NCBI GenBank assembly: GCA_008632985.1
Contig: QPGO01000060.1
Location: 62,001 to 126,000 of the forward strand
Source of the DNA: Psammoneis japonica
Taxonomy: Eukaryota
DNA length: 64,000 bases
Direction of reading: 5' to 3'
A model generated the notes under the pieces. That model searched no databases, was not told the origin of the DNA, and saw only the letters and a list, made by a program, of their open reading frames with translations. This document shows, piece after piece, positions 8,576-64,000 of this stretch (position 1 is the first letter of the stretch; each line of letters starts with the position of its first letter). Made by a program: the position numbers and the translations under genes.

Positions 8576-8579
8576 AACA

Positions 8580-10840: not shown

Positions 10841-10844
10841 TCTC

Positions 10845-20328: not shown

Positions 20329-20329
20329 A

Positions 20330-29300: not shown

Positions 29301-29329
29301 TTTCTCATTTCATTTGCAGTGAGCAGTGA

Positions 29330-42276: not shown

Positions 42277-42652
42277 CTGTAATTGCAGTGCGTTGTTGCA
42301 GCTTGTTCATTTTATTGTCAACTTTATGACAATGCGAAGAGTGTTGTCGAGAAGAGAGAAAATTTATTTGGCTCGTGCAGAAAATTTCATTCGAAGTCGA
42401 TCAGAAATGCAGCGCAATTACACTCATGAAATTGGCGATTCGGAGCAGCATTTGTTTGAACTCGAATCTCGCACCACTGCTCTTGAATTCGTTGTTGTTT
42501 GGTCATTGATTGTTCTCGTTGTGTGGATCAATTGGGAACGTTTTATTTCGTTCATCTTGTGGATTGTTGATTGTTTGATCGCTGAAGTTGTTCATCGCCA
42601 TGTGTCAAGAAGCCTTGGAGAAAGCGTGCATTGAATGTAAAACCAAAAATTC

Positions 42653-43873
42653 GTGGATTCTGAGCTGCAGGAAGTGAAGCTCACTCAAACCTTCGATGAT
42701 GGCACTGAACTTTCAAAAATGTGTCCCATTTTCACAGGAGAGCATGGAATTGAATCATCACTGCATGTGGAGGACAGGTTCCGGAAGGTGGCAAGACAGC
42801 TAGATTGTGACACCGGAATGGAGTCATTTGATGCTTTCAAGGATTGTCTCCAAGGAACTGCGGAGGCAAAATGGCAGAATGTTGCCACGGGTGTCCCACA
42901 GAATCAACGGACGGCAGCTCGATTTGATCAGGCCATCTCAGCCTGTTGTCTGCGCCATGTGAAACCAACAGCTCGCGACACGATGAAGATGCATTTGCCT
43001 GCTTGCAAAAAGCCTTACTCAGCGGAATCTGAAACTCACATTGATCGCATGGAGACGTTGTTTCATCATGCCAACCATTTGCCTGGTGCCGTTCCTGCAC
43101 TTACAGAGCAGGAGCAGAAGAACATCATCTTTTACACCTTCCCTTTGACCTGGCAGCAGTCCCACATTCGTGCGGGCAAGAACCTTGTTGCGGATTCTAT
43201 GGTGGATGTCCAAGCCTGCATGAGCAACGAGAAAGTGTTTGCCGACGGTCAAGACAACAAGAAGCTCAAGTCCAGCAATGGCAACGGAGGGAACTCCAGC
43301 AACAAAAAGGGAAACCGTGACAAGAAGGACAGTGAGGGCCAACCGAAGGCAGGTGATCCGTGTCCGGTCCTGTGGCACCATGGAAGGCACATGTGGGGCC
43401 AATGTTGTGACAATCCAAACAACCCTAACTTTCGTGGGCCTCAGAACCGTGGCGGTCAAGGAGGAGGCCATGGCGGTGGAGGTCGAGGCAGAGGTCGTTT
43501 CCAAGGAGGCCGTGGTCAAGGCCGTGGAGGCGGTGGACGCTTTGGTGGTCATGGCAACCAGAACCAAGGAGGTCGTGGCACCTGTCACAACAACAACAAC
43601 AACGGAAATCAAAATGACAATGGCAACCAAGGTGGTGGTCAACATCACCACAATGAAAACAACAACCGTGGAGGCCAAGGACAGGCCGACGGATGTGCTG
43701 CTCAAGCAGACAATGTGAACAATGACAACCAGGCTCGAGAAGCTCCTCGTGGTGATGTGCACCATTTCGATGTGATCGGACGAGGCCCTCCACGATGCGG
43801 AGGTGTGGTGAGGTTTCAGCCGGACGGGCAGTTTCCTGGCAGTTCTGAGAAGAAGGAGCTGAATGCTCCGTAG
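42653..43873 (+). pseudogene. gag: Gypsy gag (true start slightly uncertain)
   Basis: Long ORF with CPIFTG, a Cys/His knuckle (CPVLWHHGRHMWGQC) and a Gly/Arg/Asn-rich tail. Confidence 0.85.
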
Positions 43874-44099
43874 CTGAATGCTCCCAATTGCCTGTGAGAG
43901 AAGCATTTGTTGAAGAAAATGATTGTGTTTTGCCTGAATGAAATGATGAATGTTTTGCTTTTGATTGTTTTGAAAATCCTGACGAATTGTCACCTGTTGA
44001 ATTTGAAAATGCCACAGAAAATTGCATGAATGAAGAGGGGGATGTGTTTGATCAAGATGCATTTGAACACAACACTCCTCTCCCCAAAATGAGTTCGCA

Positions 44100-47000: not shown

Positions 47001-47444
47001 ATCACACGCACTGTGGTTGTCGCTGACCCACCTTTAAATGTTCAACAGGCTGAGCAGATTGTGGACGATGCCCTTGCTGCAGCCTCTTGTGCTTTGCGAT
47101 GCTCCCACTCAAGGTCTGTGGGTGTTTCAAGTGGAGCTCTGGTGTTTCAACGTGATGTGATTTTGGACTCACCTGTTGTCTCCAACCTTGCTGCGATGCA
47201 TGCCAACTGACAAGTGTTGATTGATGAGAATCTACGATGACAGAATGCGAAGCGCCATTCCTGCGATTGTCCAGTTGGTCAAGATGCATTGATCAAGTCG
47301 GTGGATCCTTCAAAGTTGGAAGAACGAGCCTGTGGTCCATTTCGAATTGTGCAAGTCCATGCCAACGGGACTGTTTTGGCACTGCAAGCACCGCACGTCA
47401 TTGAGCGAATTAACATTCGCCGCGTGGTGCTGCATCGGAGTTGA
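44100..47444 (+). pseudogene. pol: Gypsy pol (PR, RT, RNase H, IN) with frameshifts and TGA stops
   Basis: DSG; PKKDGRVR; FFTKLDL; HIDD in place of YIDD; TDASD; DHKNL; VDLIGPW; HDNGGEF; NSICERMH; GPF near the C-terminus. Confidence 0.93.
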
Positions 47445-47551
47445 GGGTTTCTTCCCAACGTCTGGGTTCCCTTCTCCGTGCGCATTGGGTTTTGAATTTT
47501 AGTCAAGTGGTTCCAATGGTGCGCGTGTTCCTTGCACCATGGAGGGGAAGA

Positions 47552-47736
47552 GTGAATGAGACAGGCACATGTGCTTTATGACCAAGTGTGCCCTCTCTGA
47601 CATGTGCACATTAACTGACGCATTAGATGTTCAGGAAGCCGACAGAAGTGTGTTCTCCGATCAGCGATTGAGCTGATTGGGTCCCTTCTTGGTTCTCCCA
47701 CAACTTTTGTCAAGTCATCTCAAGCTGGATCTTGCA
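47552..47736 (+). repeat. Gypsy 3' LTR
   Basis: Follows the PPT and matches the 5' LTR. Confidence 0.95.
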
Positions 47737-48549
47737 AGATGCATGTGCAGTGACTTTGCGATCACAGCATGGTGAATTCCGGATTCCTTTCAATCTTCTT
47801 GTAGATCAAGTTGCGCGCAGACTTGGGTGGCCGCAGAGGGCATGGCACGGCAGGAATGCGCATGCGGGAGGAGGAGAAGAGGTGGGGGCAAGACGGGGTG
47901 GGCAGATTGACGGGCGAGATGGGGTGGACGGATTGACGGGCGGGTGCATGATGGGTGAGCAGCAGGGAGAAAGAATGTCCGGAATCACAGGCGATGATTT
48001 TTGATTGGTGGTGGTGCAGGAAACAGTTGCAAGGTGATGGCGATGTGTCAGTTAAAGTGATGAAAGGGGGAAAAAAAGGAAATGTTTTGCACGCAAAGCG
48101 GTGCAGTTGGCCAAAAAAAAAATTTAACAAGGGGAGAAAAATGTTGGGAAAGGGGATTTTCAAACAGGAGCCATGTGGAAAAGACATTGAGAACATTGCA
48201 TGTGTGTTGTTTTTCATGGTGGTGGAGCATCATTGCAAAAGCACTTGAGTGTGGGGTGTCACAATGAAAAATGTGCACGCGCAAGCAATCGTGAAAATGA
48301 TGGAGGGAAGTTTTGGTGTGTTTCGAAAAGCAAAGCACTGGAGTGTTTCTCAAAACAAACTTGCAGCAGTGTTTCTGATGATGACATGATGGAGAACAAC
48401 AGGGATGGACGAAACAAGGGAGAGAAGGATGAGAAGAGAGGAAGGGAGAGAAGGAAAAATGACGAAGAGATTGGGAGAACAAAAAAGGAGCAAAAGAGAG
48501 AGAGAGTGAGCGGGAAGAAAGGAAGGCACTGCCACTGGCTCTGATTCCG

Positions 48550-51487
48550 GTGATGCCCATTTTGCTGCATCCTGTTCAGATTGATGGGGTGTCATTGCAT
48601 GACGGAGTTCAAATGTTTGCAGAAGGATGGAACAAGCCCATTGTGTTTGGAGTGCAGTCGGTTTTGCCTGTGTTTGATCCGAAGCAAATGTCGAAACATG
48701 CCAGAGCAAAGTTCAAGATGCGTCAACATTGGCAAGAGGTGGTCTCAAAGAGGAAGAAGTTGAGAACTGAAATGCAAATTAAGAGAATGGAAAGTTCATT
48801 CAAAAAAGGAATTGAAGTGAAGAATGTGATGGGGAGCAGTGCTGAAAAAGGCGAAGGAAAAACCTGGAAATGCAGGAAGTGTTTTGTGAAGCAGCCGTGT
48901 GGTGTAGACGGAGTGAAGTTGTGTTGCATGTGCGATGGTGCAAAGGTGCAATGCAAGGCAGAAGCAAGGAAGAAAGTGGACATGTTTGATTTTGTGGATG
49001 ACAATGAAGGAGATGATGATGAGACGTGGATGCCGGAGGGCGATGCAAAGGAAATCAAAAGGAAGAAGGTTCTCAAACAAAAAAAGGATCAAAAGAGAAA
49101 GCCGTCGCAAAGAGAAAGGAAAGAAAAAGAAACAGGTCAATGCAACGGTTGCTGACAAGAAGATTTGGTGGGAAACAACAGCAAATGTAGAAGAGGCACT
49201 TGCCAAGGAAAGAATCGGTGGCTCAGAAGAAGCACGCAAATGGGGATTGGTTGTCTTTGTTCCTGAGGTTCTTGTGGTGACCCATTTTGTGCATCAAGAG
49301 AAGTGTTGCCTGCAGAGAAAGGAAGCAAGGGAAAAGCACATGGCTGTGGCAGTCTTTGTTCAATGAGCCAAATGCCAAACAGCGTCATCACCAAGATTGG
49401 ACACTGGTTGTCACGGAGCGTGTCCGATGGAAATGGCTGAGACAATGAGAGAAGCTTTTGAGGTGAAGGTCATGGCAATGAAGAACGATTCGAACCACAT
49501 GGTGGATGATGCAGATCCGATGGCATCAATTGCAATGAATGGCCATCCGAGGTTGGAAGAGATGTGGAAGAAAGCATTTGAATTGTTTTGGATGCACACG
49601 GAAGCAGCAACAGTCAATTTCGTGCACTGCAAAGAAAGGAACTTGATTCAAGAAAATTTTGGATTGAGTTGTCAACAAGCTCAGGCGATGTGTGAGTTTC
49701 AAGGGTTGATGCTTGCGGGTTTAGGGGCATCTGTGAAAAAGCACAAGACCAAGTTTTCACAGCTTGTTGGAGAGACAGCTGTCTTGATCTGGGATTTTGC
49801 AGTGGATGTTGTGTGCCGTGGTGATGATGTGAAGCACTTTCCCATTTCAGAAGAAAGAGACAAGCTTTTGGAGAAATTTGGGGATGTGCTGAATCTAAAG
49901 CATGCAAGAAACATGGTCCATTCGGCAGTGCACGTGCACGCTTCATGCCACACAAATCTTCATCTCGATGACAGAAATTCATCTGAAGAATCGGAGAGCA
50001 TGTCGACAGGATTGAACACGTTGTTGGACATGCATCAATGGTTTGAGGAAAAGAGGCAGCTTTTTGAGAGCAAGGGCTTGAAGGGAAGGTTTGTCAACAT
50101 TGGCGTTGCATGTTGTGGTTTGCAACATCTCACTGCATGACTCAAGTCATTGGAAAAAGAGAAGAATGCCAGTTTGTTGTTAAAGCAAGCATTGGATGCT
50201 GCTTTTGATGATCCAGATTGGCAAGACATAGACCCAACAAAGAATTGTCCGAATGCAGAAACGGAACAAAGATTCCACGATTGGTGCAAGATGCAAAAAC
50301 CTTTTGCTGACCCAGGGAACGGTGGCATGAAAATTTATGGTTCGGAATTGCTGGAGCAAATTACAAGAACATTTTGGCATGGGTGCATGTCAGACATGCT
50401 GTTTGGGTTTTTGCGTTGGTTGGGAGTGTGCCCAGCACATGTTGTTGTCACAAGCAAAGATGTTGTTCATTTGGAGTTGTTTGTGTGCCATGATTGTCAT
50501 GGACAGTGGACACCAGTTCACACATTGTGGAAGTTCATGAACAACGGGTTTCAAAGCGGCAGGATGACTTTTTTGGAGGCAATTGCGACAGAGAGGAACC
50601 TGTGTGTGTCATGTGGTGCAGAATTGCATTGCATCACATTCGGAGAGGAAATGCCTTTGGACAGGCCAATCCTGAGGAAGGGCAAGGATGTGAGACCAAA
50701 GTGTCTTGTGGGTGCTTGATGCAAAGCAGGCATGGCTCCGTTGGCACAATCCATTGATGACAAAGCGAAAGTGTTGCAAATGGGTGAACATGCAAAGACT
50801 CAGTTGGAGCATCTTTGGGTGAACACAAAGGTGATTCGGCCCAGTGCCAAGACGGTGCACACAAACATCAACAAGAGTGAGATGATGCACGGATTTGGTC
50901 ACTTGTCAACTGTGGATTTTGTGCGGATGAATGCGTTTGCTGGGTTGGTTCCATGCCCATGTGCTCTTGAGGCGTTCGTTTTGGAAAGCCCTGGGTTCGG
51001 TCCACATTCTTGGTTTCATGTACACGGGGGTGATTCTTGTTACGATGATGATGGCTGTGTGCTTTCGATGGAAAGACAATTCAACAATCTCATGCAAGAA
51101 GCCAAGGATTGCAGGAAGGAACATGTCAATGCCACGTCTGTGGAGCAGTTTGCATGTCCCAAAGGTTGGTCCTTCTGGAAGGCAGAGTTTCTCACCTTCA
51201 TCAAAAACCATCTGCAGACATTCATTCATGTGTTTTGTGCTCCGTCAAAGCACAAGTGTCATCACATGCTTCATGCAGAAGGGAAATGGGTTCTTTTTAG
51301 CAAGGTGACATGGACTGTCTGTCCCAGAACCAAAAAATGTGACGCTTCTTTCAAGGTGGAATTTCTTTGGACAGATGCAGATGGAAATGTTTGTTTTCCG
51401 CACGGGCACACCATTCCCAATGCCAAGGCACAATGTGATGCATTTGTGCGCAATGCATCAATTCATTGGTCATGGTGTTGCTGTTGA
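48550..51487 (+). pseudogene. Long hypermutated ORF of an unclassified element
   Basis: ORFs 49397-50140, 50150-50719 and 50732-51487 share one frame and are split only by TGA. A Lys/Glu-rich upstream ORF lies at 48550-49155. Confidence 0.6.
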
Positions 51488-51599
51488 CCATCACTGGCAC
51501 CACATGCAGTTCAACATAGATGAGTGCAACAGGCACAGCAGCAAACTGCTTTGGACAGAGTTCCGTCTTTTGTTGTGTTAAGTTCCGTCTTTCATTGTG

Positions 51600-54500
51600 T
51601 TGAGTTCAATGAAGCGGTTGCAGATCCAACCCCAGAGTGAACCCCGGCCGCTCCCAACCCCGCCACTCCTCCTCTGCATCCGCCAACTCCACATCCAACC
51701 CTCCATCCTGGACCCTCGTCAGCCACAAACGCCGCAACACTGACAGCACCCCACCTGGCCCCTTTGACACCATCCTCAATGCACCTGTCCCTCCATCCCA
51801 GCAAGACATTGATGGAGACTGTGTGTCCAATGATGCACGCATGGACAACCTCACCCTCTTCGGCAAAGACGATGACCCCAACGACAACACCGATGCCACG
51901 AATGTGATGTCACAATGTGACATCAACCACTGCGCCACCCTCACCACATGGGTCCACACCCATTGCCCTGAGTGCCTTTGAGAATGGAAGCGCATTAAAG
52001 CTCGGGCTGTTGAAGACAACACCGATCCGCAATCTTTCCACCAGCATCTCCAAGAGTGGAACCCCCAAGCACCATGTGTCTGGAGTGCCCACACTGTGAA
52101 TGGTCTCCACCAGAAAACACTGCCACCCAAGACCTCCCCAAGGCAGTCCGAGCTCACCTGTGGGCCAAGCATAAAACCCCAGACCAATGCTTTCTCCAAC
52201 AAGACTTCCTCTCCCAAGCCAACCCACACTCATGCCACATCTGCAACTCTGTGCCTGCGCCCTGGCAACCTGCGCAACCATGTTGCCCGCCATGACCCCC
52301 CCCCCCCCGCACTGAAGCAAACTCTGCTTTCTCTTTGAAGCACTTGTCCTTGCTCCGCCTCACTGCTCCCCCACCACAAACCCCAAACGCTGCCCACCCG
52401 CTTCCTCCGTTGCCTCAACATGCCTCAAACTCTTCCAACAAGGGTGCACCCGTGAACTGCATGACACAGCATGTGCCACCACCCCTCATTCAGCTCCCAA
52501 CACCAATGTCCCTGACTTCTCTGCTTCCACCTGCTGCCACGCAGCTCAAGCATCCGCAGACACTGACAACTTTGGTGCAGCTTACCGCCGCATCACCTCC
52601 AACCTCCCAGTTGCCACCATTGATGATGCCCACCTCCAGCTCATCCACAAACTGCACCCACCTCACGCACCACGCCCACCCCAAGTGCCCACCACCAACA
52701 CATGACACTCCACACCTCCCCCGTCCCCTCCATGCATCTCCGATGACCACCTCCTTGCTGCCCTCAGCAAGTGTAAACCCGGCACTGCCACCAGCCCGCA
52801 TGCTGACTCCACCGACCTCCTCAAAGGCCATGCCCTCTGCAAAACAAGCACCCCCACGAAGCCACAACTCCGCCCACACCTTGCCACCTTCAAAGAATTC
52901 TTGATGATCCTCCAAACCAATTCTGTCCCTCCTGACATCCAGCCACTCATTGCCGCCAACCACTTCATGGCACTCCACAAAGACCCCACCAACCTTGACA
53001 AGTTGCGACCCATCGGATGTGCAGTGCCACCATCCGAAGCATTGCCGACACCCTTGCGATGACCATCAATGCACCTGCCCTCAGGGAACACCTCCTCCCC
53101 AATGGACAATTTGGAACAGGTGTCAAAGGCGGCCTCGACTGCCTCATGCACGCCACTCACGCCAACGTCGAACACTGCCTCAACACTGCCACACCAACCC
53201 ATGCCTTCCTTGCTCTCGACCTGTTCAACTTCTTTAACGAATGCTCACGCAACACTTGTCGGGAATTCCTCAACAACACACCTGCCTTCAGACACCTTGT
53301 CCCCATCTTTGACCTCTGCTGCAACACGACAAACATGTGCTGGCACCGCGATCCAGATGGCAACTGGCGATTCTTCCTGCAACCCGAAGGCTTCTCTCAA
53401 GGATGCCCACTTGCTCCTCCGTTCTCCACTCTCATTTTAAGCATCATCCTCAAACAACTCAATGCTGAACTTTGCCAATGCCTCCCATCCTCCAATGTCA
53501 CATCAACTGCCTCCCTCATCGATGACACCAGCATTTGGCTCCCGCACACCAAACTGCCATGGTTCCCACAATGCCTCAAGGAATTGGGCCCTCAACATGG
53601 CGTCCGCCTCAATCGCTCCAAGACACACATGCTCACCTCCATCACCAGCACTGGGCCCTCACTGAACCTGCCCCCAGCAAGCGCTGACACCCTCTGCCAA
53701 GCCCTGTGCTTCCTTGACCCTGCTGACGACCCCACTCTGCACCCCAAAATCACCACTGGCCTCTGCTTCCTTGGCCAACCCATCGGCAGCCCTGCTTTTG
53801 CCCGCACCTGCCTTGAGCAAAAAGCCACCACCTTTCACACTAACCTCAACCGCCTCTCATCATGCCTGCATGACACCCAAACCAAAAGCTCCCTTTGCCG
53901 CACCTGTGCCATCCCATCACTTCTGCACCTTCTGGCATCCAATGTCCACTTCAACTTTGACCCAGACAACCACCACCCCTCACCTCCTGGACCTCACCTT
54001 TCCAACAAGAGGCCCAGTGCCACTGCGATGCCTGCCTGCAACATCTTACAGCACAACAACAGCCATTGCCACCATGCGCCATGCTCCTTGCTCACCTCCC
54101 CACATCCTCCGGCGGCATTGGCCACTGATCCACATCCACCTCCGCCATCCCCTTTCTTGTCTCTCAACTAGCCCGCTCCTTTCGACATGCAACACATGGA
54201 CCAACTGCAGGCAATGACGACTCCCTCAAACTCCCACCCTTCTGCGCTTGCTCCCTCCACACTTGGGCCACCTCCCGCCGCCCCCTGTGCCTTTGTCAAG
54301 CATTTCAGCACTGCAGAACAGCTGCCATAAACACCCTTGACCCTCCCCCACCCTCCCTCAAGGCCCTCATCAAAACACACCCGTTGCGCAACCTTTCCCA
54401 CACCCTGTGTCATGCACACTTCCAACTTTGTGCTCGAAGACCTCTAACTGCATGGACTGCCACACGTCACCCATGCACTCCCCTCCCTTCTCTCTCCACT

Positions 54501-55555
54501 TGCAAGTCTCACACTCCACTCCCTTGCCCGCTTGCTGCCCCAACACAATGCCTGAACCCTGAGCAGTTCCGCCTCGTGCTGCAACGCAAACTGCAGCTCC
54601 CCATCTCGCCCAACCAGCTAGAGTCCACCTCTTGCCCCTCTTGCTCTGGCACCACTGACCCATGCGGCAACCACGCCTTCTGCTGCCGATCACTCGGACA
54701 CAAAACAACCATGTCCAATGCCATCCATGATGGCCTGCATGCTGCTTTCCAAACATTTGCCCTGCTTTCCGGCATCTGTGCTGACTCTTCCGCCATGCAT
54801 CATGAACCAACAAACCTGATGCCTCATTCATCCCACAAACGCCCTGCTGATGCAGGCATGCAACTTGCCCCAGCCGCCTCTGCTGCCTCCCCTCTCGGCC
54901 ACCGACACCTCGCCATTGATGTCACCATCCCTGAACCTCCCCCATTGCCTGCTCCTGGCTTGCCTGCCCCCACCCTTGATCCTCACACCAAGGCACACCA
55001 TGCAAGCACAAAATGGAAGTTCAACAGAACCCATGAGACTCAAAATGAAGCAACCCTTGCATCCGCCCTTAACAACACCGGCATCCACCTCATTTCCTTC
55101 ACCATCGACCATCTGGGAGCCCCGGGCTGCTTCGCCCATCGCCTTCTTTTTGGCGCCAACCAAGACCACCCCATCCCTGCCCCACCTGCCCCACCCTGGA
55201 CCACTGAAACCTCCTTCATGCACCCAGCTGCTCACGTGGCTGCCTGTGCCTGCGCCCAACAATCCCCGTCCGACAACCTCCCTGCTGCCACTGCCACCTG
55301 GCAAACCATGATCTCTGCCGAACGCTTTGGCTTGACCCGCCAGCACTCTTCAACTCCATCACAATGGGGTGTTCAAAGCCTGAGCCTTGCTGTTGCCAAA
55401 TCGCTCGCTGACCAACTAACCCGCTGCTCCACCAAACTGCAATCTCAAACATCCAACCCCAACTCGAAATCCATCCCTTTTCCTGCCCACATGACTCAGC
55501 ACAGTTCCACCCTTGCTCCGCGTCTGTCCCTCCCCCATGCCACCAGGTGACGTTG
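51600..55555 (+). mobile_element. Near full-length CRE-like non-LTR retrotransposon (zinc fingers, RT, CCHC, restriction-like endonuclease), mutated
   Basis: C2H2 fingers CPHC...HLWAKH and CHIC...NHVARH. RT motifs LRPIG, QFGTGVKGG, LDLFNFFN, GFSQGCPL and LIDD. CPSC...DPCGNHAFCC. Endonuclease motifs KRPAD and AIDVT. Confidence 0.9.
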
Positions 55556-55565
55556 CACGTGAAAT

Positions 55566-55757
55566 CGAACAAATCTCAATGTAACAAAAGAACAAGCACG
55601 ACACCTTACGTCCAACAGAAAGTTGTGACACTGTCAATGCAAACCCAAACCTGATTAGATTGTGTGCGTGTTGCTAGAACACCACTCGATGCATGCATGT
55701 TGACCAGTCACCAATCACAACATTGTCCTCCCTTCCTTCTCCATCCAGATTCACTCG
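55566..55757 (-). repeat. Copia 3' LTR
   Basis: Aligns to 62105-62298 with 15 substitutions and one 2-bp indel by my count. Confidence 0.95.
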
Positions 55758-55920
55758 GTCCCCGCGAAACGGCAATGACAATGCCGATTTGTCTAAACCC
55801 ACAACATCCTCTCACAGAGAGGTAAACCACAAAACCCAAATTAAACCACCAGACATGCTGGCTTGGGAGGCCGAGACACGTGGGTGCAAGCCACAGGTGC
55901 CTGGCCTTGGTGTTGGAACA

Positions 55921-58900
55921 TTGCCAAAAGATGCACGAGCAAAGCTTCCATCGCCGCTCTCCTGCAACCATTTTTGCAAGTAGATCTGCCAAGTTTGTTT
56001 CCGTGTCCTCCTTGCCAACATGAACAATTCCCGACCGCTTCTCGCACAACATGGTGGTTGATGGCATCATGCTTCTCATGCAAAACCAACTCAGGCACAC
56101 TTGCATTCTTCACAACACCACGATCATCACAAAAGACACTTGCCGGTCCTTCAAGGGGAGCTCCAAACATGCAAAGCTTGTGATGCAAAGCGACAATCAA
56201 CTCCTTGCAAATCCGCATCGCAACCAATTCACTTCCAAACGTCGCCGATTCCACCGTGTTCTGCGGCTTGCTGAACCACACCACTGGTGCGTTGTTGACA
56301 AACATCAGAGTTCCGCTGTGCGACCTGCGAGTTACGACATTCCCTGCATGGTTAGCGTCAACAAATGCACAGATGTTTGCCGGGTTGCCACGAGGCTTCG
56401 GTGCCCATGGTGGCAGTTCCTCCTCAACGTCCCTCTAAAACTCGGTCCAGTCTGCATTCGAATTGAAAATGGATTCATCAATCACCGGTTCTTTCGGATC
56501 GAATCCAATGCGTCCAACGTTCTGGTGCTTCTTCACATGCGCAAATGCATGATGTGATGCTTCAAGGTGTCCTTTCCTTGGATTAGCTTGACATTGAGAT
56601 AGGATTGAAACCTCATGCAAGATGTCGGTGCGACCCAACTCGATCGCCCACCGACAAATCCCTGTCAACTGTAAATGCCTGTCCACCAAGTCGGGGCCTA
56701 GCTCGTCTGTCACGTCCAGTTCCGGTTTGTGCTTCAGGGGCAGTGGATCCTTTGCACTGTTCTTCAGAACTTCTCCATTGCCGTCTTCATCCAGCAGACC
56801 CTCCACAGTCTTAATTGCCGATTTGGCATATGACCTCGGTGAACTCACCCAGATTGTGCGCCCATCCTGAGTCTGAACCTTCTCAATGTTAGCTCCAAGA
56901 TGAACCTCTGGCTCTCCTTCGCTGCCGGGCTTCACAGCATGGTGCTCACCTGTTGCAGCAACAATGGACTTCCCTTGATGGGAAATGATTGGCACATCGT
57001 CAACATAAACCAAAAGCATTTCACAATGCTCATGCCCATCTTCACGAGTTGCCGCACGCAAGTGAACATCTGGATCCGCTCTCGTCGATTCAAAGCCTGA
57101 GTCACGTGGGACCGATGACAGTGCAGACCTCCAAGACCATCCCGAGCTCTTCAAGCCACATGACGCCCGAGTGACAACAAGCACCTTCCCTTCACACTCG
57201 CCGCATTCCTTTCCGCCTTCGAACCATGTCTTCTCTGCGCACGGTGCATTGAGACAAGCATTCTCCAGATCAACCACTGTGACATCGATTCCATTCAAAG
57301 CTGCCAGCAAGAACCCAAGTCGCACACTGTCTCTAGAAACCACGCTAGAACAAGCAATCGATGCCGGAGCCTCTGTCGTGTGGCCGCCAGCTACAAACCT
57401 TGCCTTTCTGGTGAAATCCATTTTAATGTCAAACACCATGTGGCTCCTGATCTCCTGACAACCACGCAAAGTTGCACCTTTGCTTTTGTCATCTCCTTGT
57501 TGATTGCACGAGCCCAACAGTCTGTCCCCATTTCCTGGTCTATCTGCAAAGCGTCCTCCATTGACTTGGGTGATCGGATGCCAAACTTGTGAGTCGTGCG
57601 CCAGTGCTTCTTCTCAACCTTGGATGCAATGCGATTCCGTTTGCGTGGGACATGCGTGACCCACCAAGCAAAAGCAGGCTCCTCAGTCAACCTGTTCGCA
57701 ACAGCACATTCAGCAACTTCAATTGGGTTAGAGTCCTTTAGATCTTTGAGTTTGACCCAAGATGAGCTGCCATCCTTCCATCTGACCAACAGTTTCCATC
57801 CTTTTGTCGTGATTTTCTTCTTCTCCTTCCCGTCAGTGGTTCGTACGGTGCCATCAGCAACCGACACTGCATCGTCACTTCTCTCGTGGTCCTGTATTTC
57901 GTGTAAGATGGAACACTGGTTGCCTTCGCTGTCGACCTGAGCGAACATGTTCTCGGCAATTACATTGGCTGTGTGCTTGTCTGTGGTGCCGTCGGTGCAT
58001 TCCACTTCGTGTTCGCGAGTGTCAAACAATGGGTTTTGATGCCGAGTCCCAATTGGACGTCCATCCTGTCCTCTTGCACGTTTCGTTACAACACCGCGTC
58101 GTTCACCGTCGGTTCCAACGTCAAACATGAGTTCCATTCCCAGGCATTGATCAATTGCCTGTTCGTCATCATCGTCCGGTCGTTCGTCGGGTGATGGCAT
58201 GTTGCCACATTCCTCGTCCTCAGGCATGATGCCACCCTCACATTCCACACCGGGGTTGCCGTCAATTGCAAGATTGTCCAACACGAATGCAGGTGCTGCT
58301 TCATCACCCTGCAAGACAAAGTTAGCATCATCCAATCGCTTTTCCAGCTGCTCATTAAAGTTGTCAATCTTAACGCGAACATCTGGTTGCACCACATCAG
58401 CCTGTGTCACGTGCTCAACGGATGTTTTGGAGACAATCTTCCCGCTTTCCGCAACAATCCAACAGCACGTGTCCGAGCCAACTTTGTGTGAGATGCCAAG
58501 CCACCGTCCAAGCCTTCGAGGGTCATCAGTTGCACTCGGCTTGTTGGGCCTGTCCCACCACCACACCATGTCGCAGAAACCAAAATCTAGATGCTCGCCT
58601 GTTTCTGGTGTCTGTCCAGTGACCTCTTCACATCTGGTCCTCTTGTCTCTGCCTCTTGCCATGCGCGACACTAATTCCGACTCACAAATGAGACCAAAAT
58701 CCCATGATCGTCTTGGCACCTTCTTCTTCATCATTCGCAGCTGCCAACACTTGGCCAAGAAACCAATTTTGCGCTCCGCTGCCTGGCTCTGGTTCTTCCG
58801 ACCCTGTTCCGATGTTCTCAACTGCATTCTCACATGTCGTGCATGCCTTGCAAACTCGGTGCTCTTTCCAGTGAACTCTCCTGCCCCATCCGACATGAGA

Positions 58901-61642
58901 TGTTCTGGTGCACCCACGTCGTCTGTGAATTCAACGAGAGACAAACCTGCTTCCGACCTTGTGGTCATCGGCACAACCTTCACGAATTTGCCCTGAGCAC
59001 AAACATTGGCACACGTGTCACCGAGTGGGGACTTCACCTTGGATGTCAAAGTGTCCACAAACCATGTTCCTTTCAGATGCTTCCGGTGCAAGTCGAGGTG
59101 ATCCACCCTGACTCTTCGTGACATCGGCTGGGTCGCCGTTCGCATGCCGCGCTGAGCAGCTACATTGAGGGTGTCTTTTGCCGTTTCCAAACCGACACTC
59201 CATTTTCGAGCCAACTCTTCAGCGTCAACTTTCAAGTGCCGATCCTTGCTGTGTGGCTCTTTGATTGCCCTCTGCCTTTTGTCCACGTTGTCGAGACACG
59301 TGCAAGCCACATTGACTGAGCTGATGAGCCTGTCACAAAACGATTGAAGTTGACAGATGGGGGACATAGATGACAGTTGCATTTCGACCTTGCCCCAGCG
59401 AGCTGCTTGGGACTTCGCCTTCTCGCTCCTTAATTCCGAGATCTGCTCTTGTCGCATGCCAGAGGTTGATGATCAAACAGTGCGCATCTCCGCCTGCTCT
59501 CTAGTGCGCTCCGGTGAGCCCACATCCATCTGTGCTGGATCCCATGCGTCACCTGTCAACAGCATAACCGGCAAGTTCTGCACTTCCCAATCCATCGGAA
59601 CACGAGACTTGAAAGACACAATTGTCCCCGTGGCATTAAAGGGGATGAAAGCTTCATCAGCTTCAATGCCAAATCCGTTTCGAGTGTCGTGAGGGTTGTC
59701 GTGTGCGGGCATGTTGTGCGCACGAAGTTGGTTGGGGTTCAAAAGCAAATGTTCCATGTTGGTTCCAAACCAGAGCATTTGGTCACCAACCAGCAGATGT
59801 TCACGAGTCGTTTCTGGATCTGTCCATGCCGTGCAACAACGTGCCACAGGAATCTGTTTGATCGGCTCATACGAGTCCAGAAACGGATGTACTTCGCACA
59901 CTTCATTTGTCATCTCCACAAGCTTCCAGTTCGCTCCAGCGCAACAGGTGTCCGCGTGAGTGTCACATTCATTTCGAGCAACAAACCGGGTGTCGTCAAA
60001 TTTGTCATCTGTGCGGAACTCGTCGATCGGATCACACGTTTTGATGTCACAGCAATGTGCCTCTTTGTCACCTTTTCTTTGAAACGAGATTTTGGGTGGG
60101 GTTTGGTCAACAGCAAGAAGAGCAACACAAGCAAAAACGACAAGTGCACCAAATGCGCCAATGCTCCAGTGGCTGTTGCCACCCCAAGAAGTCAGGTGGA
60201 ACCATCACAGGCTCCCCGGCCAAAGACACGTCCATTTCGTCCACCGCGATCACGGTCAGCACCGCGACCACGCCCACTGCTCCTTTGCTCCTGATCCTGT
60301 TGTTGGGTTTGGCCTTGGCCATCTTGACAAACTTGGGTTTCGGCTGCATGCCTGCCGCCCCCATCACGTCCTTGTTGACCTGCGGGAGGCCCACAGCCTC
60401 CACCGCGTCCATGTCCCATTCGTTCGCGAGCTTGGAAAACACAGCTGATCCCTCCATTAAACTGTGACTTTTCCCATTCTTGAGCACCAAAGCTCCTTGT
60501 TGGGTTGGATGCATCAACTCCATTGATCATTGCAGTGTGGTTGCCACCCCTGCCTTGGCGACCACCACCACATCCACGTCCACCCCAACGTCCAAATCTT
60601 CCTCCGCGACCACGACCTCGATGGAAGCCACGGCCACCGCCGCCACCACGGCTCATTTCAGAAATCTTGCGCTTCGAGCAATGCCGGGCTTCCAACTGAG
60701 CACCTGCATGTGAACGAGAGACTTCGGATGAGAAACAAGCATGTCAACTTTCCATTGTTCAGATTTGCAGTCATCCTGTGATTTGTTCAAAGTGGCAAAA
60801 GCATTGGCAAGTTTCTCATTGAACTTTTCAAACGGGAGTGATCCTTCCTTTTTGTAAAACAAGGTGTCAATGGTGGCCGCAGCCAGATGAATGCGCTTGC
60901 TCAACTCGCCCTGTCCGTTGCAATGGTCGACCCATGCATTGAATGCTCCATGTCCATCTTCTGTCACATCAAACGGTTTGATCCATGCCCATCCCGCTGT
61001 GTCGACCAAGTGTTCCTTCAACACACGACAAACGCTGCGGTTGTCCTCATCAAATTTGGCACCATTCAGTGGCATCTGGCACATGCGCTGCTGTTGAGCA
61101 TTTGTGAATGCAGCCGGAGCTGGCATCATCCTCACAACGTGGCGAAGGGGCTCTTTCAACATGCCAAACTTCTGTGCCAGGAGATTCAAGAAAGCGTCTT
61201 CGCACACATCAAAGTCATCAGACTCAAACTTTACGAGACCGCTCGCCGATGCGTCCGAGTCCGTGAGCTCCTTTTCGACACGTCTGCCATCTCGGGCCGC
61301 AGCCACAGCTGCCACATTAAAGTTTGCCGCAACCAATGCCTGATTCCGTTTGAGCAAATCCTGGCACCACCATGACAATGCCTGCAAGTTCTTGATTTGA
61401 ACAGTTCCAAGAGTTGCACGTCCGTCGGCTGCCGTGCGACGAGACGCCCTTTGCGCCATGTCTTCCACATCATGGTCACTTTCCATCACTGCGATGTTTT
61501 CTAAAGTCGCAAACCCTTCATAGAAAACCAACCTCGCCCTTGCGTTTTGGTCAGCAACACCACAAACTTGTAAAACTGCATCAACATCAGCTGCCGCGGC
61601 TGATGCCGCAAGTGCTGCTGCTGGTGCTGCCGCTGCTGCCAT
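55921..61642 (-). pseudogene. Copia gag-pol polyprotein with frameshifts and stops
   Basis: ATG at 61642 (MAAAAAP...); DTHADTCC; LLNPNQLR; SDGAGEF; KARFVAGGH; LVYVDD; QNTVESATFGSE; NLADLLAK. Confidence 0.92.
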
Positions 61643-62090
61643 CCCACAACAAAGAAAGGGCACAAAGGTCCCGCACCGGGAACACACAGTTGTGAGTCTG
61701 CATGGTCATGGAGGCCACACTTTCTCTATGTTGTGATGACGGGTTCACACAGCCACCCGACGTCAGGGTGATCAGTCCTGTGTCGTTCATGTCAACCGAC
61801 ATTGTTGGGCACACGCTCTCGGGCATGTCACCCAATGCCGCAGTCCCCTCACACCCGTTGTGCATGTGAGGATAGTGACTATCTTTGCGAGCATTGCCAT
61901 TGCAAGCTGTTTTTGTGGACATCATAATGAGCGACACGAGACGCATCTTCGTGCGCATCAATCCGAGTTCTGACGCATCGCGCACATTCCAGTGCCGTTT
62001 CTACAGCTGCACGTTCCATGCAAACAATGCAACAAACAATCGTCCATGACGAATTGTATTTGAAACCATTTCATTCTGTCTTATCGTCAT

Positions 62091-62102
62091 TGGCTCTGAT
62101 AA
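62091..62102 (-). promoter_or_regulatory. Primer-binding-site-like sequence of the Copia element
   Basis: The minus strand reads TTATCAGAGCCA immediately inside the 5' LTR, resembling the tRNA-iMet PBS TGGTATCAGAGC. Confidence 0.65.
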
Positions 62103-62104
62103 AG

Positions 62105-62298
62105 CGAATAAATCTCAATGTAACGAAAGAACAAGCACGATGCCTTACGTCTAATAGAAAGTTGTAACACTGTCAATGCGAACCTAAACCTGATTAGATT
62201 GTGTGCGTGTTGCTCTAGAACACCACTCGATACATATATGTTAACCAGTCACCAATAATAACATTGTCCTCCCTTCCTTCTCCATCCAGATTCACTCG
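62105..62298 (-). repeat. Copia 5' LTR
   Basis: Partner of 55566-55757, adjacent to the PBS. Confidence 0.95.
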
Positions 62299-62436
62299 AA
62301 ATCACGCGCGAAGTTTTAGAGGTGTGAAGAATGAAGCGAGCATGGCGGTGTGTTAGAGCATCTAGCTGATTACGCAACCTCCAATTTCACACAAGTCCAC
62401 GTTCAAAAGCATCATTTTACATCTTTCTGTGTTGTC

Positions 62437-64000
62437 ATGCCGATCTCTTCAAGGTCGCTCGTTGCATTTCTAGTGTTGATTTATGCATCCCATGAATGCC
62501 AATCGTTTGTTCCGTTGTCTCCAAGGAAATGGGGCAGCAACAACAAGTACAATGTAAACAAAAGAACTGGCGGTGGAAACTACAATGACAACAACAATAG
62601 TAATAATGGAAATGGCCCTCCAAGACATCCTGGTTTCAATTCAGGCTGGAATGATAACGATGATGAAAATCATTTCTCTGGAACGACTTTGTTCAGTGGT
62701 TTATTCTTTGCGACATGTCGATCGGAGAAAGAGCATAACCTACATGAATGGGCAATTCAAGATTGTAATATCCAAAACAAACATTCCGATGACGACGATT
62801 CAATATCGATACGAGGAGGAGATAGCACCACTCAAAGCACAAGTGTAAAAGAAAAGCCGTCCGGTTTGAAGGGCATTGTATCGTATTGGTCCACCGTGTT
62901 GAGTTCTGCCGGCTCCTCCTTGTTGAGTCCGTTTCGCTTTGTATCGTCCAAGGTCTCCTCCCTCTTTTCCCCAACGGCACGCAAGGAAAAAGCAATCAAG
63001 GACAAGCTTAATTCTGTACCGATTCAATCGGTAATTGTACGACAAAACTCAACTGTACTGCCACCCGAAATCGTCACGTCGGCCGCCCAACAATCTGGTC
63101 TCTTGGGCAATCCGATCTCGCCTGAAATCATTCAAGATGTGGCCATGTCATTGAAACGATGGTATGTCAATCAGGGCTATGTCTTGGCCACTGTAACAGG
63201 TGCCACGTTGGATGCTCCAAATGCCACGGCTGAAATTGAGGTGGAAGAACCGCTCGTGTCGGACATTCCCGTCAAAATTACATTTTTGAAGAAAATGATT
63301 GTGGACAAGCATGGTGAAGTCTTGACGTTTCGACAGTACAAGGAACAGCACTTGAAAGAATACGGACCCGCCGTACCGATCCAACGGAGCGCATTGAATA
63401 CAACCTATGTACCAACGTCTGGCAAAACAAGCCCCAAGCGCATCTCCAAGGCGCTCAATCTATTGCCTGGAAAACCCTTTCAATGGCAGGGAGAACGGTG
63501 GCAAACAGTCATGTCGAGTGGAGTCTTTAGCCAGATACTCGGTGCGAGTCCACAACGCATGGAGGATGGTACCGCTCAGCTGCACGTGCTCGTCACGGAA
63601 CGGCCTCCCCGAAATTTGGAATACGGCATGACGAAATCACTCTACACGGGTTCGTGGGAGGGTGAAGTGGATTTCGTCAATGGCAATTTGTTTGGTGGTG
63701 GTGAAGTCATTGGATTGATGGTACGTCGTGGTACCAGCGATGCCGAGACGAGTGCTAGACTGAGATTTAGTGACTCGAAATTTGGTCAAGCCGGCGGGTA
63801 CAATGTGGATGTGTTTAGTGAATTCATTGGAGATCAACTGCTACGCTCCGAGGGCAATGGCGTGACGGATTACAATCACGACACTCTACTATCACGCCGC
63901 GGAGCAACTGTACAATTCCAAAATCCAATTGATCCTAGTCGCATCAGAAACACGTTGGCAAGTGCCTCTTTGGAACGCACATCGACTCGGTCCGGACACC
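62437..64000 (+). CDS. Plastid Omp85/BamA/Toc75-family protein, truncated by the window edge (absent from the ORF track because no stop is reached)
   Basis: Continuous frame from ATG 62437: signal peptide MPISSRSLVAFLVLIYASHECQS|FVP (ASAFAP-like) and IRGG. POTRA-like LKRWYVNQGYVLATV and ALNLLPGKPF...SGVFSQI. Barrel start GNLFGGGE. Confidence 0.88.
   Translation, partial: MPISSRSLVAFLVLIYASHECQSFVPLSPRKWGSNNKYNVNKRTGGGNYNDNNNSNNGNGPPRHPGFNSGWNDNDDENHFSGTTLFSGLFFATCRSEKEHNLHEWAIQDCNIQNKHSDDDDSISIRGGDSTTQSTSVKEKPSGLKGIVSYWSTVLSSAGSSLLSPFRFVSSKVSSLFSPTARKEKAIKDKLNSVPIQSVIVRQNSTVLPPEIVTSAAQQSGLLGNPISPEIIQDVAMSLKRWYVNQGYVLATVTGATLDAPNATAEIEVEEPLVSDIPVKITFLKKMIVDKHGEVLTFRQYKEQHLKEYGPAVPIQRSALNTTYVPTSGKTSPKRISKALNLLPGKPFQWQGERWQTVMSSGVFSQILGASPQRMEDGTAQLHVLVTERPPRNLEYGMTKSLYTGSWEGEVDFVNGNLFGGGEVIGLMVRRGTSDAETSARLRFSDSKFGQAGGYNVDVFSEFIGDQLLRSEGNGVTDYNHDTLLSRRGATVQFQNPIDPSRIRNTLASASLERTSTRSGH

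What the first reader, a model, noticed from the sequence alone, without database searches (positions are those of the whole stretch)
55566..62298. Copia LTR pair independently shows the same polarity
Seen: of 15 substitutions, 10 are TA in the right LTR versus CA/TG in the left (e.g. gatacatatatgttaacc vs gatgcatgcatgttgacc). Two are CG->CA, two form one reciprocal TG/CA pair and one is TA->TC. The spared LTR is again the gene-proximal one, 139 bp from the Omp85 ATG. The RNase H frame reads ...IFWQ at ~55921, possibly a TAA stop turned into CAA (inference). Caveat: in both elements the spared LTR is also the 5' LTR.
Basis: partly seen in the sequence, partly recalled or inferred. Interest (0 to 1): 0.8.

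Follow-up and report, generated by a model that had tools for sequence, protein, structure and literature searches.

The report
TpA hypermutation of diatom retrotransposons
The two end-repeats of a jumping gene in a diatom differ because a process that turns TA into CA or TG has eroded a whole 20-kb transposon cluster except its outermost few hundred bases beside normal genes; such TA-specific erosion of foreign DNA has so far been reported only from one unrelated alga.

Summary
The copia LTRs (55567-55757 and 62106-62298, 5-bp target duplication AAATC) differ at 15 substitution columns. Ten are TA in the right LTR against CA/TG in the left, never the reverse. In the element's interior, 12 of 14 conserved Tyr columns of the RT read His (CAY) or Cys (TGT). 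Of 42 Tyr in an intact relative's polyprotein, 29 read Cys or His. The pol stop position reads CAA. CA-versus-TG dinucleotides between LTRs fit only an ancestral TA hit in both copies. The element is one of three retroelements in a single TpA-depleted domain (about 42.3-62.1 kb; TpA o/e 0.04-0.2, CpA+TpG o/e 1.5-1.8). The two TA-rich LTRs are the domain's two outer edges, each facing a gene. They are also both 5' LTRs, so the confound remains. Gene homologues point to a diatom. The same TpA-only A->G/T->C hypermutation was described in a 2026 preprint for integrated viruses of Bigelowiella natans, and my searches found nothing for diatoms. New here are post-insertion proof from LTR pairs, a flank preference (TAY > TAG >> TAA), CpG decay in the same LTR, and edge sparing.

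The parts
55567..62298 (-). Degenerate Ty1/copia LTR retrotransposon (E2), about 6.7 kb
   Evidence: LTR pair. RVT_2 hit E 1e-10. 55-71% aa identity over four aligned segments to an intact 1437-aa copia polyprotein from a metagenome contig, L003. In-frame stops and frame changes.
55562..55566 (.). Target-site duplication AAATC, left copy
   Evidence: Identical 5-mer directly outside both LTRs.
62299..62303 (.). Target-site duplication AAATC, right copy
55567..55757 (-). 3' LTR, inner and TA-poor (4 TA, TpA o/e 0.27, CpA+TpG o/e 1.64)
   Evidence: An X1 contig of 300 nt (55458-55757) matches it and its flank with 0 differences.
62106..62298 (-). 5' LTR, outer, gene-side and TA-rich (15 TA, TpA o/e 0.86)
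62092..62101 (-). PBS-like TATCAGAGCC just inside the 5' LTR
   Evidence: The likeness to the copia tRNA-iMet primer site is recalled, not tested.
56438..57613 (-). RT ORF (RVT_2) in which 12 of 14 conserved Tyr are His/Cys
57394..59472 (-). ORF upstream of the RT, 59% identical to the L003 polyprotein, no Pfam hit, Tyr 0%
55921..55923 (-). CAA codon at the position of the pol stop codon of the closest relatives
   Evidence: 20 of 41 aligned homologue C-termini end at the preceding W codon 55924-55926.
42300..62050 (.). Continuous TpA-depleted, CpA/TpG-enriched transposon island holding E1, an RVT_1 remnant and E2
   Evidence: Per-kb o/e, 250-bp and 100-bp profiles, inward gradients from both edges.
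42092..47736 (+). Ty3/gypsy element E1. Outer 5' LTR 42092-42276 has 11 TA, inner 3' LTR 47552-47736 has 3 TA. 4-bp AGAT on both sides.
   Evidence: 2 of 11 conserved Tyr columns kept, 5 Cys, 2 His.
52999..54168 (+). Weak RVT_1 ORF, remnant of a third retroelement between E1 and E2
   Evidence: Pfam E 1.7e-6, below the curated cut-off.
62437..63999 (+). Start of an Omp85/BamA-family gene, TA-normal, running off the window
   Evidence: 113 homologues. The named ones are diatoms, and precomputed domains are PF01103/PF08479. TpA o/e 0.53-0.55.
8250..12250 (.). Second TpA-depleted domain (TpA o/e 0.06-0.19, CpG o/e 0.09-0.17)
15000..31750 (.). Third TpA-depleted domain (TpA o/e 0-0.13, CpG o/e mostly 0.02-0.3). 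No Pfam match with E at or below 0.001 in 24 ORFs of 150 aa or more (one chance-level hit, E 0.009).

Best explanation
The LTR asymmetry is the local trace of a regional, TpA-specific hypermutation of integrated retroelements. After insertion, TA dinucleotides inside a transposon island are converted to TG or CA, that is A->G on one strand or the other, at a rate far above background. CpG sites in the same DNA decay to TG/CA. The process covers the whole island of three unrelated retroelements (about 42.3-62.1 kb) and fades over the last 200-800 bp at both edges, where the island meets TA-normal genic DNA. So the outer LTR of each flanking element keeps its TAs while its inner twin loses about 70-80% of them. 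Shown: the dinucleotide specificity, the direction, action after insertion, action on both strands, regional confinement and a flank preference. Inferred: the chemistry (adenine deamination in 5'-TA-3' by a TadA/ADAT2-like enzyme acting on DNA, as proposed for Bigelowiella natans), the targeting (silent, methylated chromatin rather than homology), and the cause of the sparing (distance from the island edge or an active promoter, rather than 5'-LTR identity).
For: Specificity and polarity: 10/10 and 8/8 TA-type differences have the TA in the outer LTR. Non-TA, non-CpG differences number only 1-2 per pair. By inference, taking unseen same-product double hits as equal in number to the visible CA/TG reciprocals, the copia inner LTR lost about 12 of about 17 ancestral TA and the outer LTR about 2. 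Direction: Tyr->His/Cys in the copia RT (12 of 14 conserved columns), across the copia polyprotein (29 of 42, 4 kept) and in the gypsy RT-RNase H (7 of 11, 2 kept). Also Leu->Pro via CCA, Ile->Thr via ACA, the lost stop TAA->CAA and the reciprocal CA/TG dinucleotides. Post-insertion: both pairs have intact target duplications, so the two LTRs of each pair started identical (established for LTR elements). Both strands: in the inner LTRs, CA:TG products are 6:4 and 4:4. Tyr->His:Cys is 7:5. CA and TG are roughly equal per kb in depleted DNA. Regional: TA is 5.1 per kb in 40.4 kb of depleted DNA against 35.6 per kb in 22.3 kb of normal DNA. [quoted passage not shown] Pfam-recognisable host genes lie in TA-normal parts and RT domains in depleted parts. 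Not intrinsic to the family: 80 related copia loci have TpA o/e 0.51-0.93 against 0.15 here. 120 RT homologues have Tyr 2.5-5.7% and at most 3 His/Cys in the 14 columns. Edge gradient: TA per 200 bp going inward is 12,4,2,1,1 for E1 and 16,4,3,3,1,1,0 for E2. Against homology targeting: the inner LTRs are also ends of their own families' homology, yet they are mutated. Flank preference: TA survival is 0.01 (ATAC/GTAT), 0.03 (ATAT), 0.04 (GTAC), 0.13 (CTAG), 0.27 (CTAA/TTAG) and 0.46 (TTAA). The 7 TA left in the inner LTRs are GTAA, TTAC, TTAG, CTAG, TTAT, TTAA and TTAG. Real sequence: contigs of a public DNA run reproduce the TA-poor LTR and its flank exactly, and 303 of its 2040 contigs laid on the stretch are at least 99% alike. 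Precedent: mutation-accumulation lines of B. natans gain A->G/T->C only at TpA, in integrated virus DNA, about 1000-fold above background (bioRxiv 10.64898/2026.01.13.699255; Results, Discussion and dinucleotide Methods read).
Against: No outgroup exists for the LTR sites themselves, so their direction rests on parsimony with the interior and on the reciprocal and CpG sites. There are only two LTR pairs, and in both the outer LTR is also the 5' LTR. Edge position and 5' identity are therefore fully confounded, and the gradient argument assumes an even ancestral TA density. Part of the interior depletion could have been inherited from source copies that were already mutated. The family has tens of copies by summed contig depth. 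Run X1 is probably the sample the assembly came from, so it rules out a long-read basecalling artefact only if it is short-read data, and its library type is not on record. X1 contigs did not cover 62209-63000, so the TA-rich LTR is not independently confirmed. No enzyme, methylation or chromatin data could be examined because no genome is held. One of the two peptide patterns used to fetch the 80 relatives contains Tyr, which biases that set against hypermutated copies.
Confidence: 0.75

Rival explanations
1. The asymmetry is a property of LTR identity, not position. Either the 5' LTR is protected (for example as the element's promoter), or the 3' LTR is preferentially exposed, for example by editing of reverse-transcription intermediates or by transcription through U3.
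For: In both elements the TA-rich LTR is the 5' LTR. The drop in TA density lies within about 0-100 bp of the inner LTR boundary in both.
Against: Both strands are hit about equally in the 3' LTRs (6:4 and 4:4), unlike single-strand editing of a cDNA. CpG decay has the same polarity (4 of 4), which fits a chromatin domain in situ. DNA outside the elements but inside the island (47.7-55.6 kb) is equally depleted. TA density stays above the deep-interior level for a further 200-600 bp inside the 5' LTRs. In B. natans the process acts on resident DNA.
Confidence: 0.17
2. RIP-like C->T mutation at CpA made the outer LTRs TA-rich, so the TA-poor LTR is ancestral.
For: The CA/TG<->TA class is that of Neurospora RIP (recalled). 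Diatoms carry a DNMT4 class related to RID (recalled). The outer LTRs have more TA per kb (about 60-76) than TA-normal DNA (35.6).
Against: The interior outgroup tests give the opposite direction. The reciprocal CA/TG dinucleotides cannot arise by C->T alone. TpA/ApT in the elements is 0.04-0.23 and (CpA+TpG)/(ApC+GpT) is 1.4-1.7, the reverse of RIP indices. The outer LTR TpA o/e values of 0.79-0.86 lie within the 0.51-0.93 of unmutated relatives. It would need CpG gain, or CpG loss in the other LTR.
Confidence: 0.02
3. Artefact: a modified base at TpA (or 5mC at CpG) in silent chromatin is misread during sequencing or polishing, so the 'mutations' are epigenetic marks.
For: TA and CG both collapse to CA/TG in the same domains. 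Systematic miscalls at methylated motifs are known for long-read consensus (recalled).
Against: Contigs built from a public run reproduce the TA-poor LTR and flank with 0 differences in 300 nt. 303 contigs are at least 99% alike across the element. The family's other copies differ from this one mainly by transitions (433 of 488 listed places), as expected if each copy mutated on its own. The same signature was verified by Illumina mutation accumulation in B. natans.
Confidence: 0.04
4. The TA poverty was inherited from source copies that were TA-poor, and the LTR differences are ordinary divergence.
For: Multi-copy family. Part of the interior depletion may well be inherited.
Against: LTRs are identical at insertion, yet 10 of 15 and 8 of 18 differing columns are TA-type and all polarised (p=1e-5 and 6e-4). 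The control repeat has 1 of 22. Three unrelated elements and two further domains share the signature.
Confidence: 0.02

Closest known systems
TpA-specific hypermutation of integrated NCLDV/virophage DNA in Bigelowiella natans (Mettrop et al., bioRxiv 10.64898/2026.01.13.699255, 2026)
   Same: Only TpA is hit, and the products are TpG and CpA (A->G / T->C on either strand). The process is confined to stretches of foreign DNA. The long-term signature is TpA depletion with CpA+TpG enrichment in clusters of 1-kb windows. RT and DDE domains are enriched in TpA-depleted CDS.
   Different: The host is a diatom (stramenopile), not a chlorarachniophyte (rhizarian). The targets are LTR retrotransposons in a transposon island, not giant-virus or virophage insertions. 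Depletion here is far deeper (o/e 0.0-0.2 against 0.45 for their NCLDV region). Here there is no real-time rate, only LTR pairs as a natural clock. A flank preference, co-polarised CpG decay and edge sparing are described here and do not appear in the sections I read. Their supplements were not available to me.
Repeat-induced point mutation (RIP) of Neurospora and other fungi
   Same: Regional hypermutation of repeats and transposons through transitions in one dinucleotide class, which ruins coding capacity. It may work like a genome defence.
   Different: The chemistry and direction are opposite (RIP: C->T, CpA->TpA, making DNA AT-rich; here A->G, TpA->CpA/TpG, making DNA GC-richer and erasing TAA/TAG stops). 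RIP is homology-triggered and premeiotic, whereas here the inner and outer copies of the same repeat fare differently. The RIP details are recalled.
Methylation-driven CpG decay of silenced transposons
   Same: It occurs in the same domains and the same LTRs (CpG o/e 0.02-0.3 over most of 8-29 kb and 0.4-0.9 in the 43-62 kb island; 4 of 4 LTR CpG differences are lost in the inner LTR).
   Different: It cannot remove TpA. It accounts for only 2 of 15 and 2 of 18 LTR differences.
Deaminase editing of retroelements (APOBEC3 on cDNA; ADAR or fungal TAD2/TAD3 A-to-I on RNA)
   Same: Clustered transitions in retroelements. A-to-I enzymes of the ADAT lineage prefer U before the edited A (abstract start of PMC11156358 seen in the listing; the tRNA U33-A34 context is recalled).
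   Different: Those act on single-stranded cDNA or on RNA and give strand-biased changes shared by both LTRs. Here both strands are hit, after integration, and the two LTRs differ.

Membership tests
TpA->CpA/TpG hypermutation of foreign DNA (B. natans type) | Changes fall on TpA and give TpG or CpA | tested here: met
   18 polarised LTR sites plus 4 reciprocal dinucleotides. Tyr->His/Cys by CAY/TGY.
TpA->CpA/TpG hypermutation of foreign DNA (B. natans type) | Direction AT->GC, against the usual GC->AT bias | tested here: met
   Outgroup tests with 120 and 67 homologues and one intact relative. Stop position reads CAA.
TpA->CpA/TpG hypermutation of foreign DNA (B. natans type) | [quoted passage not shown] | tested here: met
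   35 of 64 windows pass, in runs at 8-12, 15-32 and 46-55 kb. Thresholds taken from the preprint's Methods. My Rho formula may differ in detail because theirs is an image.
TpA->CpA/TpG hypermutation of foreign DNA (B. natans type) | Confined to DNA of foreign or mobile origin | tested here: met
   RT domains lie in depleted DNA, while the RRM, NYN, GDSL lipase, Argonaute and Omp85 genes lie in TA-normal DNA. The 15-31.7 kb domain has no recognisable content.
TpA->CpA/TpG hypermutation of foreign DNA (B. natans type) | Measured de novo rate about 1000-fold above background | not testable with these tools
   Only indirect: in the copia pair 12 of about 17 TA were lost in the inner LTR against 1 other substitution column over about 190 bp.
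TpA->CpA/TpG hypermutation of foreign DNA (B. natans type) | ADAT2-like deaminase candidate in the host | not testable with these tools
   No genome is held for this window.
Fungal RIP | C->T at CpA giving a high TpA/ApT and a low (CpA+TpG)/(ApC+GpT) | tested here: not met
   TpA/ApT is 0.04-0.23 and the second index 1.4-1.7 in the elements. The direction is the opposite.
Fungal RIP | All copies of a repeat are mutated alike (homology trigger) | tested here: not met
   The two LTRs of one element differ 15 vs 4 and 11 vs 3 in TA.
Ty1/copia LTR retrotransposon (E2) | Direct LTRs with a 5-bp target duplication | tested here: met
   191/193-bp LTRs, AAATC on both sides.
Ty1/copia LTR retrotransposon (E2) | Copia-type RT (RVT_2) | tested here: met
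   PF07727 E 1e-10, 42.1 bits against cut-off 31.6. All 120 listed homologues carry PF07727.
Ty1/copia LTR retrotransposon (E2) | Integrase upstream of RT | tested here: inconclusive
   No rve hit in E2 even at E up to 5, nor in the intact relative L003 at E up to 0.01. The 693-aa ORF upstream of the RT is 59% identical to L003.
Ty1/copia LTR retrotransposon (E2) | TG...CA LTR termini and a tRNA-iMet primer site | tested here: inconclusive
   In element orientation the termini read CGAG...GTTC. A PBS-like TATCAGAGCC lies 4 nt inside the 5' LTR. The tRNA match is recalled only.

The most novel reading that the evidence does not exclude
Diatoms, like the rhizarian Bigelowiella, run an enzymatic genome defence that deaminates adenine in 5'-TA-3' (best in TAY) on both strands of silenced, methylated transposon chromatin. 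It is a chemical mirror image of fungal RIP. It is bounded by active genes, so transposon ends that abut promoters escape and keep their regulatory sequence. If the two lineages share it by descent, the system is old and widespread in the SAR supergroup.
Probability: 0.4. Interest if true: 0.85.

Novelty: new member of a known kind. Interest (0 to 1): 0.72.

Why it matters
Until 2026, RIP in fungi was the only regional hypermutation known to act on resident mobile DNA (recalled). One preprint then reported a TpA-specific, AT->GC process in a chlorarachniophyte. This window shows the same signature, much more advanced, in a diatom, and on LTR retrotransposons, the dominant diatom transposons. 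LTR pairs date it to after insertion. The finding points to a second eukaryotic supergroup branch with this process. It gives a flank preference (TAY > TAG >> TAA) that any candidate deaminase must reproduce. It shows the process travels with CpG decay and stops within a few hundred bases of genes. There are practical consequences. LTR-divergence dating will overestimate ages in such genomes. TAA/TAG vanish, so depleted DNA is full of long false ORFs, and transposon proteins lose Tyr, so gene finders and Pfam miss or misread them. Here neither E2 nor its intact relative L003 gives an integrase hit.

Tried and rejected
The whole genome is not held, so no genome-wide LTR survey, family consensus or deaminase search was possible. 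A search for longer relatives of the Omp85 ORF found none; the length setting was a poor choice, and the search was repeated as 'near'. Earlier notes of this scan held nothing by place or by words. A conserved LTR motif had 0 matches in metagenome contigs. Sequencing runs: no RNA holder is listed. X2 and X3 laid next to nothing, and X1 contigs left 62209-63000 almost or wholly uncovered, which proves nothing. The read table showed only 40 of 489 differing places, none inside the LTRs, so it gave no LTR consensus. Of its 23 best-supported sites in the element, 9 are this copy's TG/CA against CG elsewhere and 2 are CA against TA. Pfam found no gag or integrase in E2 even at E up to 5, and nothing in the 8-12 kb domain. 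In the 15-31.7 kb domain it found only one chance-level hit (HalOD2, E 0.009, below cut-off). I tested whether the strong GC skew of 48-55.5 kb comes from strand-biased TA->CA. It does not: the skew is CC/GG tracts (176 vs 15 per kb). None of the 120 RT homologues or 80 related loci is itself hypermutated. Literature: searches combining diatom with TpA, hypermutation, CoDi or dinucleotide, and TA dinucleotide, A-to-G or genome defense, gave nothing on TpA loss in diatoms. Maumus 2009 (PMC2806351) has 0 occurrences of deamination, RIP, TpA or hypermut (term search only). PMC12344493 passages were irrelevant.
Full report
**1. The observation**

The repeat finder returns the pair 55562-55757 / 62101-62298. 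Reading both ends shows a perfect 5-bp direct repeat, AAATC, just outside the repeat. The LTRs are therefore 55567-55757 and 62106-62298, and they come from a single insertion.

The alignments give 15 substitution columns and one 2-nt indel:
- 10 are TA in the right LTR against CA or TG in the left, with none the other way.
- 2 are CG (right) against CA (left).
- 2 form one CA (left) / TG (right) dinucleotide.
- 1 is a transversion.

The right LTR holds 15 TA (o/e 0.86) and the left holds 4 (o/e 0.27). The polarity has p=0.002. The concentration of differences on TA positions has p=1e-5. A repeat pair in ordinary DNA of the same window (35473-35896) has 1 TA-type change in 22 substitutions.

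The other LTR pair of the window (42092-42276 / 47552-47736) behaves the same way. It has 8 TA-type sites, all with TA in the left LTR, 2 CpG sites retained in the left LTR, and 3 CA/TG reciprocal dinucleotides.

**2. What the elements are**

- The element of the finding lies on the minus strand. It has an RVT_2 (copia-type RT) hit at 56438-57613, a PBS-like TATCAGAGCC next to the right LTR, and the end of pol near 55924. The right, TA-rich LTR is therefore the 5' LTR.
- The second element is a Ty3/gypsy on the plus strand (RVT_1, RNase H, integrase zinc and core domains). Its left, TA-rich LTR is also the 5' LTR.
- Between them, 52999-54168 carries a weak RVT_1 match.
- The ORF starting at 62437, 139 nt from the right LTR, has 113 homologues. 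The named ones are diatoms (Seminavis, Pseudo-nitzschia, Fistulifera, Cylindrotheca, Leptocylindrus; 39-61% identity across all hits), with PF01103/PF08479 and BamA/D15 names. The window therefore comes from a diatom or a close relative with no near neighbour among the named hits.

**3. The wider picture**

A per-kb dinucleotide table shows that the LTR asymmetry is a detail of something much larger.
- From about 42.3 to 62.1 kb, TpA o/e is 0.04-0.20, CpA+TpG o/e is 1.5-1.8 and CpG o/e is 0.4-0.9.
- Two further domains (8.25-12.25 kb and 15-31.75 kb) reach TpA o/e 0.00-0.19 and CpG o/e mostly 0.02-0.3.
- The flanking genic DNA has TpA o/e about 0.5-0.6.
- TA density is 5.1 per kb in 40.4 kb of depleted DNA against 35.6 per kb in 22.3 kb of normal DNA.
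- 35 of 64 1-kb windows pass the thresholds that a recent preprint used to call such clusters.

The two TA-rich LTRs are exactly the two outer edges of the 42.3-62.1 kb domain.

**4. Direction**

Four lines of evidence agree that TA is ancestral.
- In an alignment of the copia RT ORF with 120 homologues (44-67% identity), 14 columns have Tyr in at least 60% of homologues. The element keeps Tyr in 2, and has His (CAT/CAC) in 7 and Cys (TGT) in 5. Phe is kept in 10 of 10 columns, His in 6 of 6 and Asp in 17 of 18. Ile is kept in only 3 of 11 (three are Thr ACA), and Leu changes include Pro CCA and Ser TCA.
- Against the uninterrupted 1437-aa polyprotein of a related metagenome element (L003), 42 Tyr align to 4 Tyr, 16 Cys and 13 His.
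- The gypsy RT-RNase H gives 2 Tyr kept of 11, with 5 Cys and 2 His (67 of 150 homologues usable).
- The C-termini of 20 of 41 homologues aligned there, the closest among them, end at the Trp codon 55924-55926.

The CA/TG reciprocal dinucleotides between sister LTRs are explained by one hit in each copy of an ancestral TA, and by nothing simpler. They also show that the outer LTRs are not wholly spared. I take invisible same-product double hits to equal the visible ones (an inference). On that basis the inner copia LTR lost about 12 of about 17 TA and the outer LTR about 2.

The family is not TA-poor by nature. 80 related copia loci have TpA o/e 0.51-0.93 (median 0.70) against 0.15 here. One of the two search patterns contained Tyr, which biases that set. 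None of the 120 homologues has more than 3 His/Cys in the 14 columns.

**5. Is the sequence real?**

A public DNA run (coded X1, probably the source sample) was laid on 55000-63000 as contigs.
- A 300-nt contig reproduces 55458-55757, which is the flank plus the TA-poor LTR, without a difference.
- 303 contigs are at least 99% alike.
- The summed depth of about 1000-2200, against about 40-60 for single contigs, shows a family of tens of copies.
- These copies differ from this one mostly by transitions (433 of 488 listed places).

The TA-rich LTR itself was not covered. That leaves it unconfirmed but argues for nothing.

**6. Properties of the process**

- It acts after insertion, because it produces differences between LTRs.
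- It acts on both strands. CA:TG products are 6:4 and 4:4 in the inner LTRs, His:Cys is 7:5, and CA and TG are roughly equal per kb. This excludes RNA editing followed by reverse transcription and disfavours single-strand cDNA editing.
- It has a flank preference. The share of TA surviving relative to normal DNA is 0.01 for ATAC/GTAT, 0.03 for ATAT, 0.04 for GTAC, 0.07-0.09 for ATAG, CTAC and ATAA, 0.13 for CTAG, 0.20 for GTAA, 0.27 for CTAA and 0.46 for TTAA. Read as an adenine target, this is T-A-(T or C) > T-A-G >> T-A-A. The TA left in the inner LTRs are of the resistant kinds.
- It travels with CpG decay. All 4 CpG differences are lost in the inner LTR.
- It fades at the island edges. TA per 200 bp going inward is 12, 4, 2, 1, 1 for E1 and 16, 4, 3, 3, 1, 1, 0 for E2.
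- The inner LTRs are also ends of their families' homology and are mutated, so a purely homology-triggered mechanism with an edge effect does not fit. A domain defined at the level of the island does.

**7. Comparison with the literature**

A full-text search found a 2026 preprint on Bigelowiella natans (10.64898/2026.01.13.699255). I read the abstract, Results, Discussion and the dinucleotide Methods. I did not see its supplements.
- In mutation-accumulation lines, 231 of 302 nuclear point mutations fall in two integrated virus regions.
- 230 of those 231 are A->G or T->C, and all of these fall on TpA.
- The rate is about 1000 times background.
- Genome-wide there are 124 TpA-depleted, CpA+TpG-enriched clusters, and RT and DDE domains are enriched in TpA-depleted CDS.
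- The authors propose an ADAT2-like adenine deaminase.

The signature here is the same. The host lineage, the targets (LTR retrotransposons), the depth of depletion and the points under 6 differ or are additional. Further searches for diatoms gave nothing. Within the held library the phenomenon is therefore unreported for diatoms.

It is the chemical reverse of fungal RIP, and the RIP indices are inverted. It is not explained by CpG decay alone.

**8. What remains open**

The cause of the sparing is not settled. Both spared LTRs are island edges facing genes. One is 139 nt from the Omp85 start. The other is 1.7 kb from the PAZ-encoding ORF of an Argonaute-like gene on the minus strand, whose start I could not place. 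Both are also 5' LTRs. I favour the edge reading at roughly 3:1. My reasons are the co-polarised CpG decay, the depletion of inter-element DNA and the graded decline beyond the LTR. Only a genome-wide survey can decide. The enzyme and the targeting signal are inferences.

**9. Verdict**

The feature is a new member, in a diatom, of a kind of hypermutation described only very recently in an unrelated alga.

Noticed in passing
window 37160-40419 (minus strand): An Argonaute-like gene (Piwi domain in 37160-38083, PAZ in 39538-40419) lies in TA-normal DNA. Its PAZ ORF ends 1.7 kb from the left edge of the hypermutated transposon island, and its start was not located.
   Followed up: partly
window 15000-31750: A 16.7-kb domain has almost no TA (o/e 0.00-0.13) and very low CpG (o/e mostly 0.02-0.3). 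None of its 24 ORFs of 150 aa or more gave a Pfam match with E at or below 0.001. It is presumably very old or very heavily mutated mobile or viral DNA of unknown kind.
   Followed up: partly
window 48000-55500: Extreme GC skew flips sign near 51 kb (+0.45 at 48-49 kb, -0.48 at 52-53 kb). It is caused by C-rich or G-rich tracts (CC 176 vs GG 15 per kb), not by CA/TG asymmetry. A weak RVT_1 ORF lies at 52999-54168.
   Followed up: partly
window 42400-62000 and the other depleted domains: TAA and TAG are nearly gone (87 against 427 TGA in 19.6 kb), so depleted DNA carries many long open frames on both strands (55 frames of 80 aa or more in 54-64 kb). These are not genes. The transposon ORFs have 0-0.7% Tyr.
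   Followed up: yes
window 8172-8262 / 8379-8469: A 91-nt repeat pair at the left edge of the 8-12 kb depleted domain also shows a CA-vs-TG reciprocal dinucleotide among its 5 differing columns.
   Followed up: partly
window 3812-4750: A diverged 488-bp tandem duplication (83-84% identity) lies in a partly TA-depleted kilobase (4001-5000, TpA o/e 0.28). It has 6 reciprocal CA/TG dinucleotides and 6:1 TA-type differences. This may be an older or weaker instance of the same process outside the main domains.
   Followed up: no
window 7024-7281: Six head-to-tail copies of a 33-nt unit lie inside the ORF 6759-7949 (+), encoding a Glu/Lys/Arg-rich repeat. The ORF has no Pfam family.
   Followed up: no
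window 31193-31564: Two tandem copies of a 186-nt unit (97% identity) lie at the right edge of the 15-31.7 kb domain. Their 5 differences include 3 CpG sites kept in the first copy and lost in the second.
   Followed up: partly
L003 778-5088 (metagenome contig): An apparently intact relative of the copia element has one 1437-aa open frame. It also gives no Pfam integrase or protease hit at E up to 0.01, so this diatom copia lineage is poorly covered by Pfam apart from RVT_2.
   Followed up: partly
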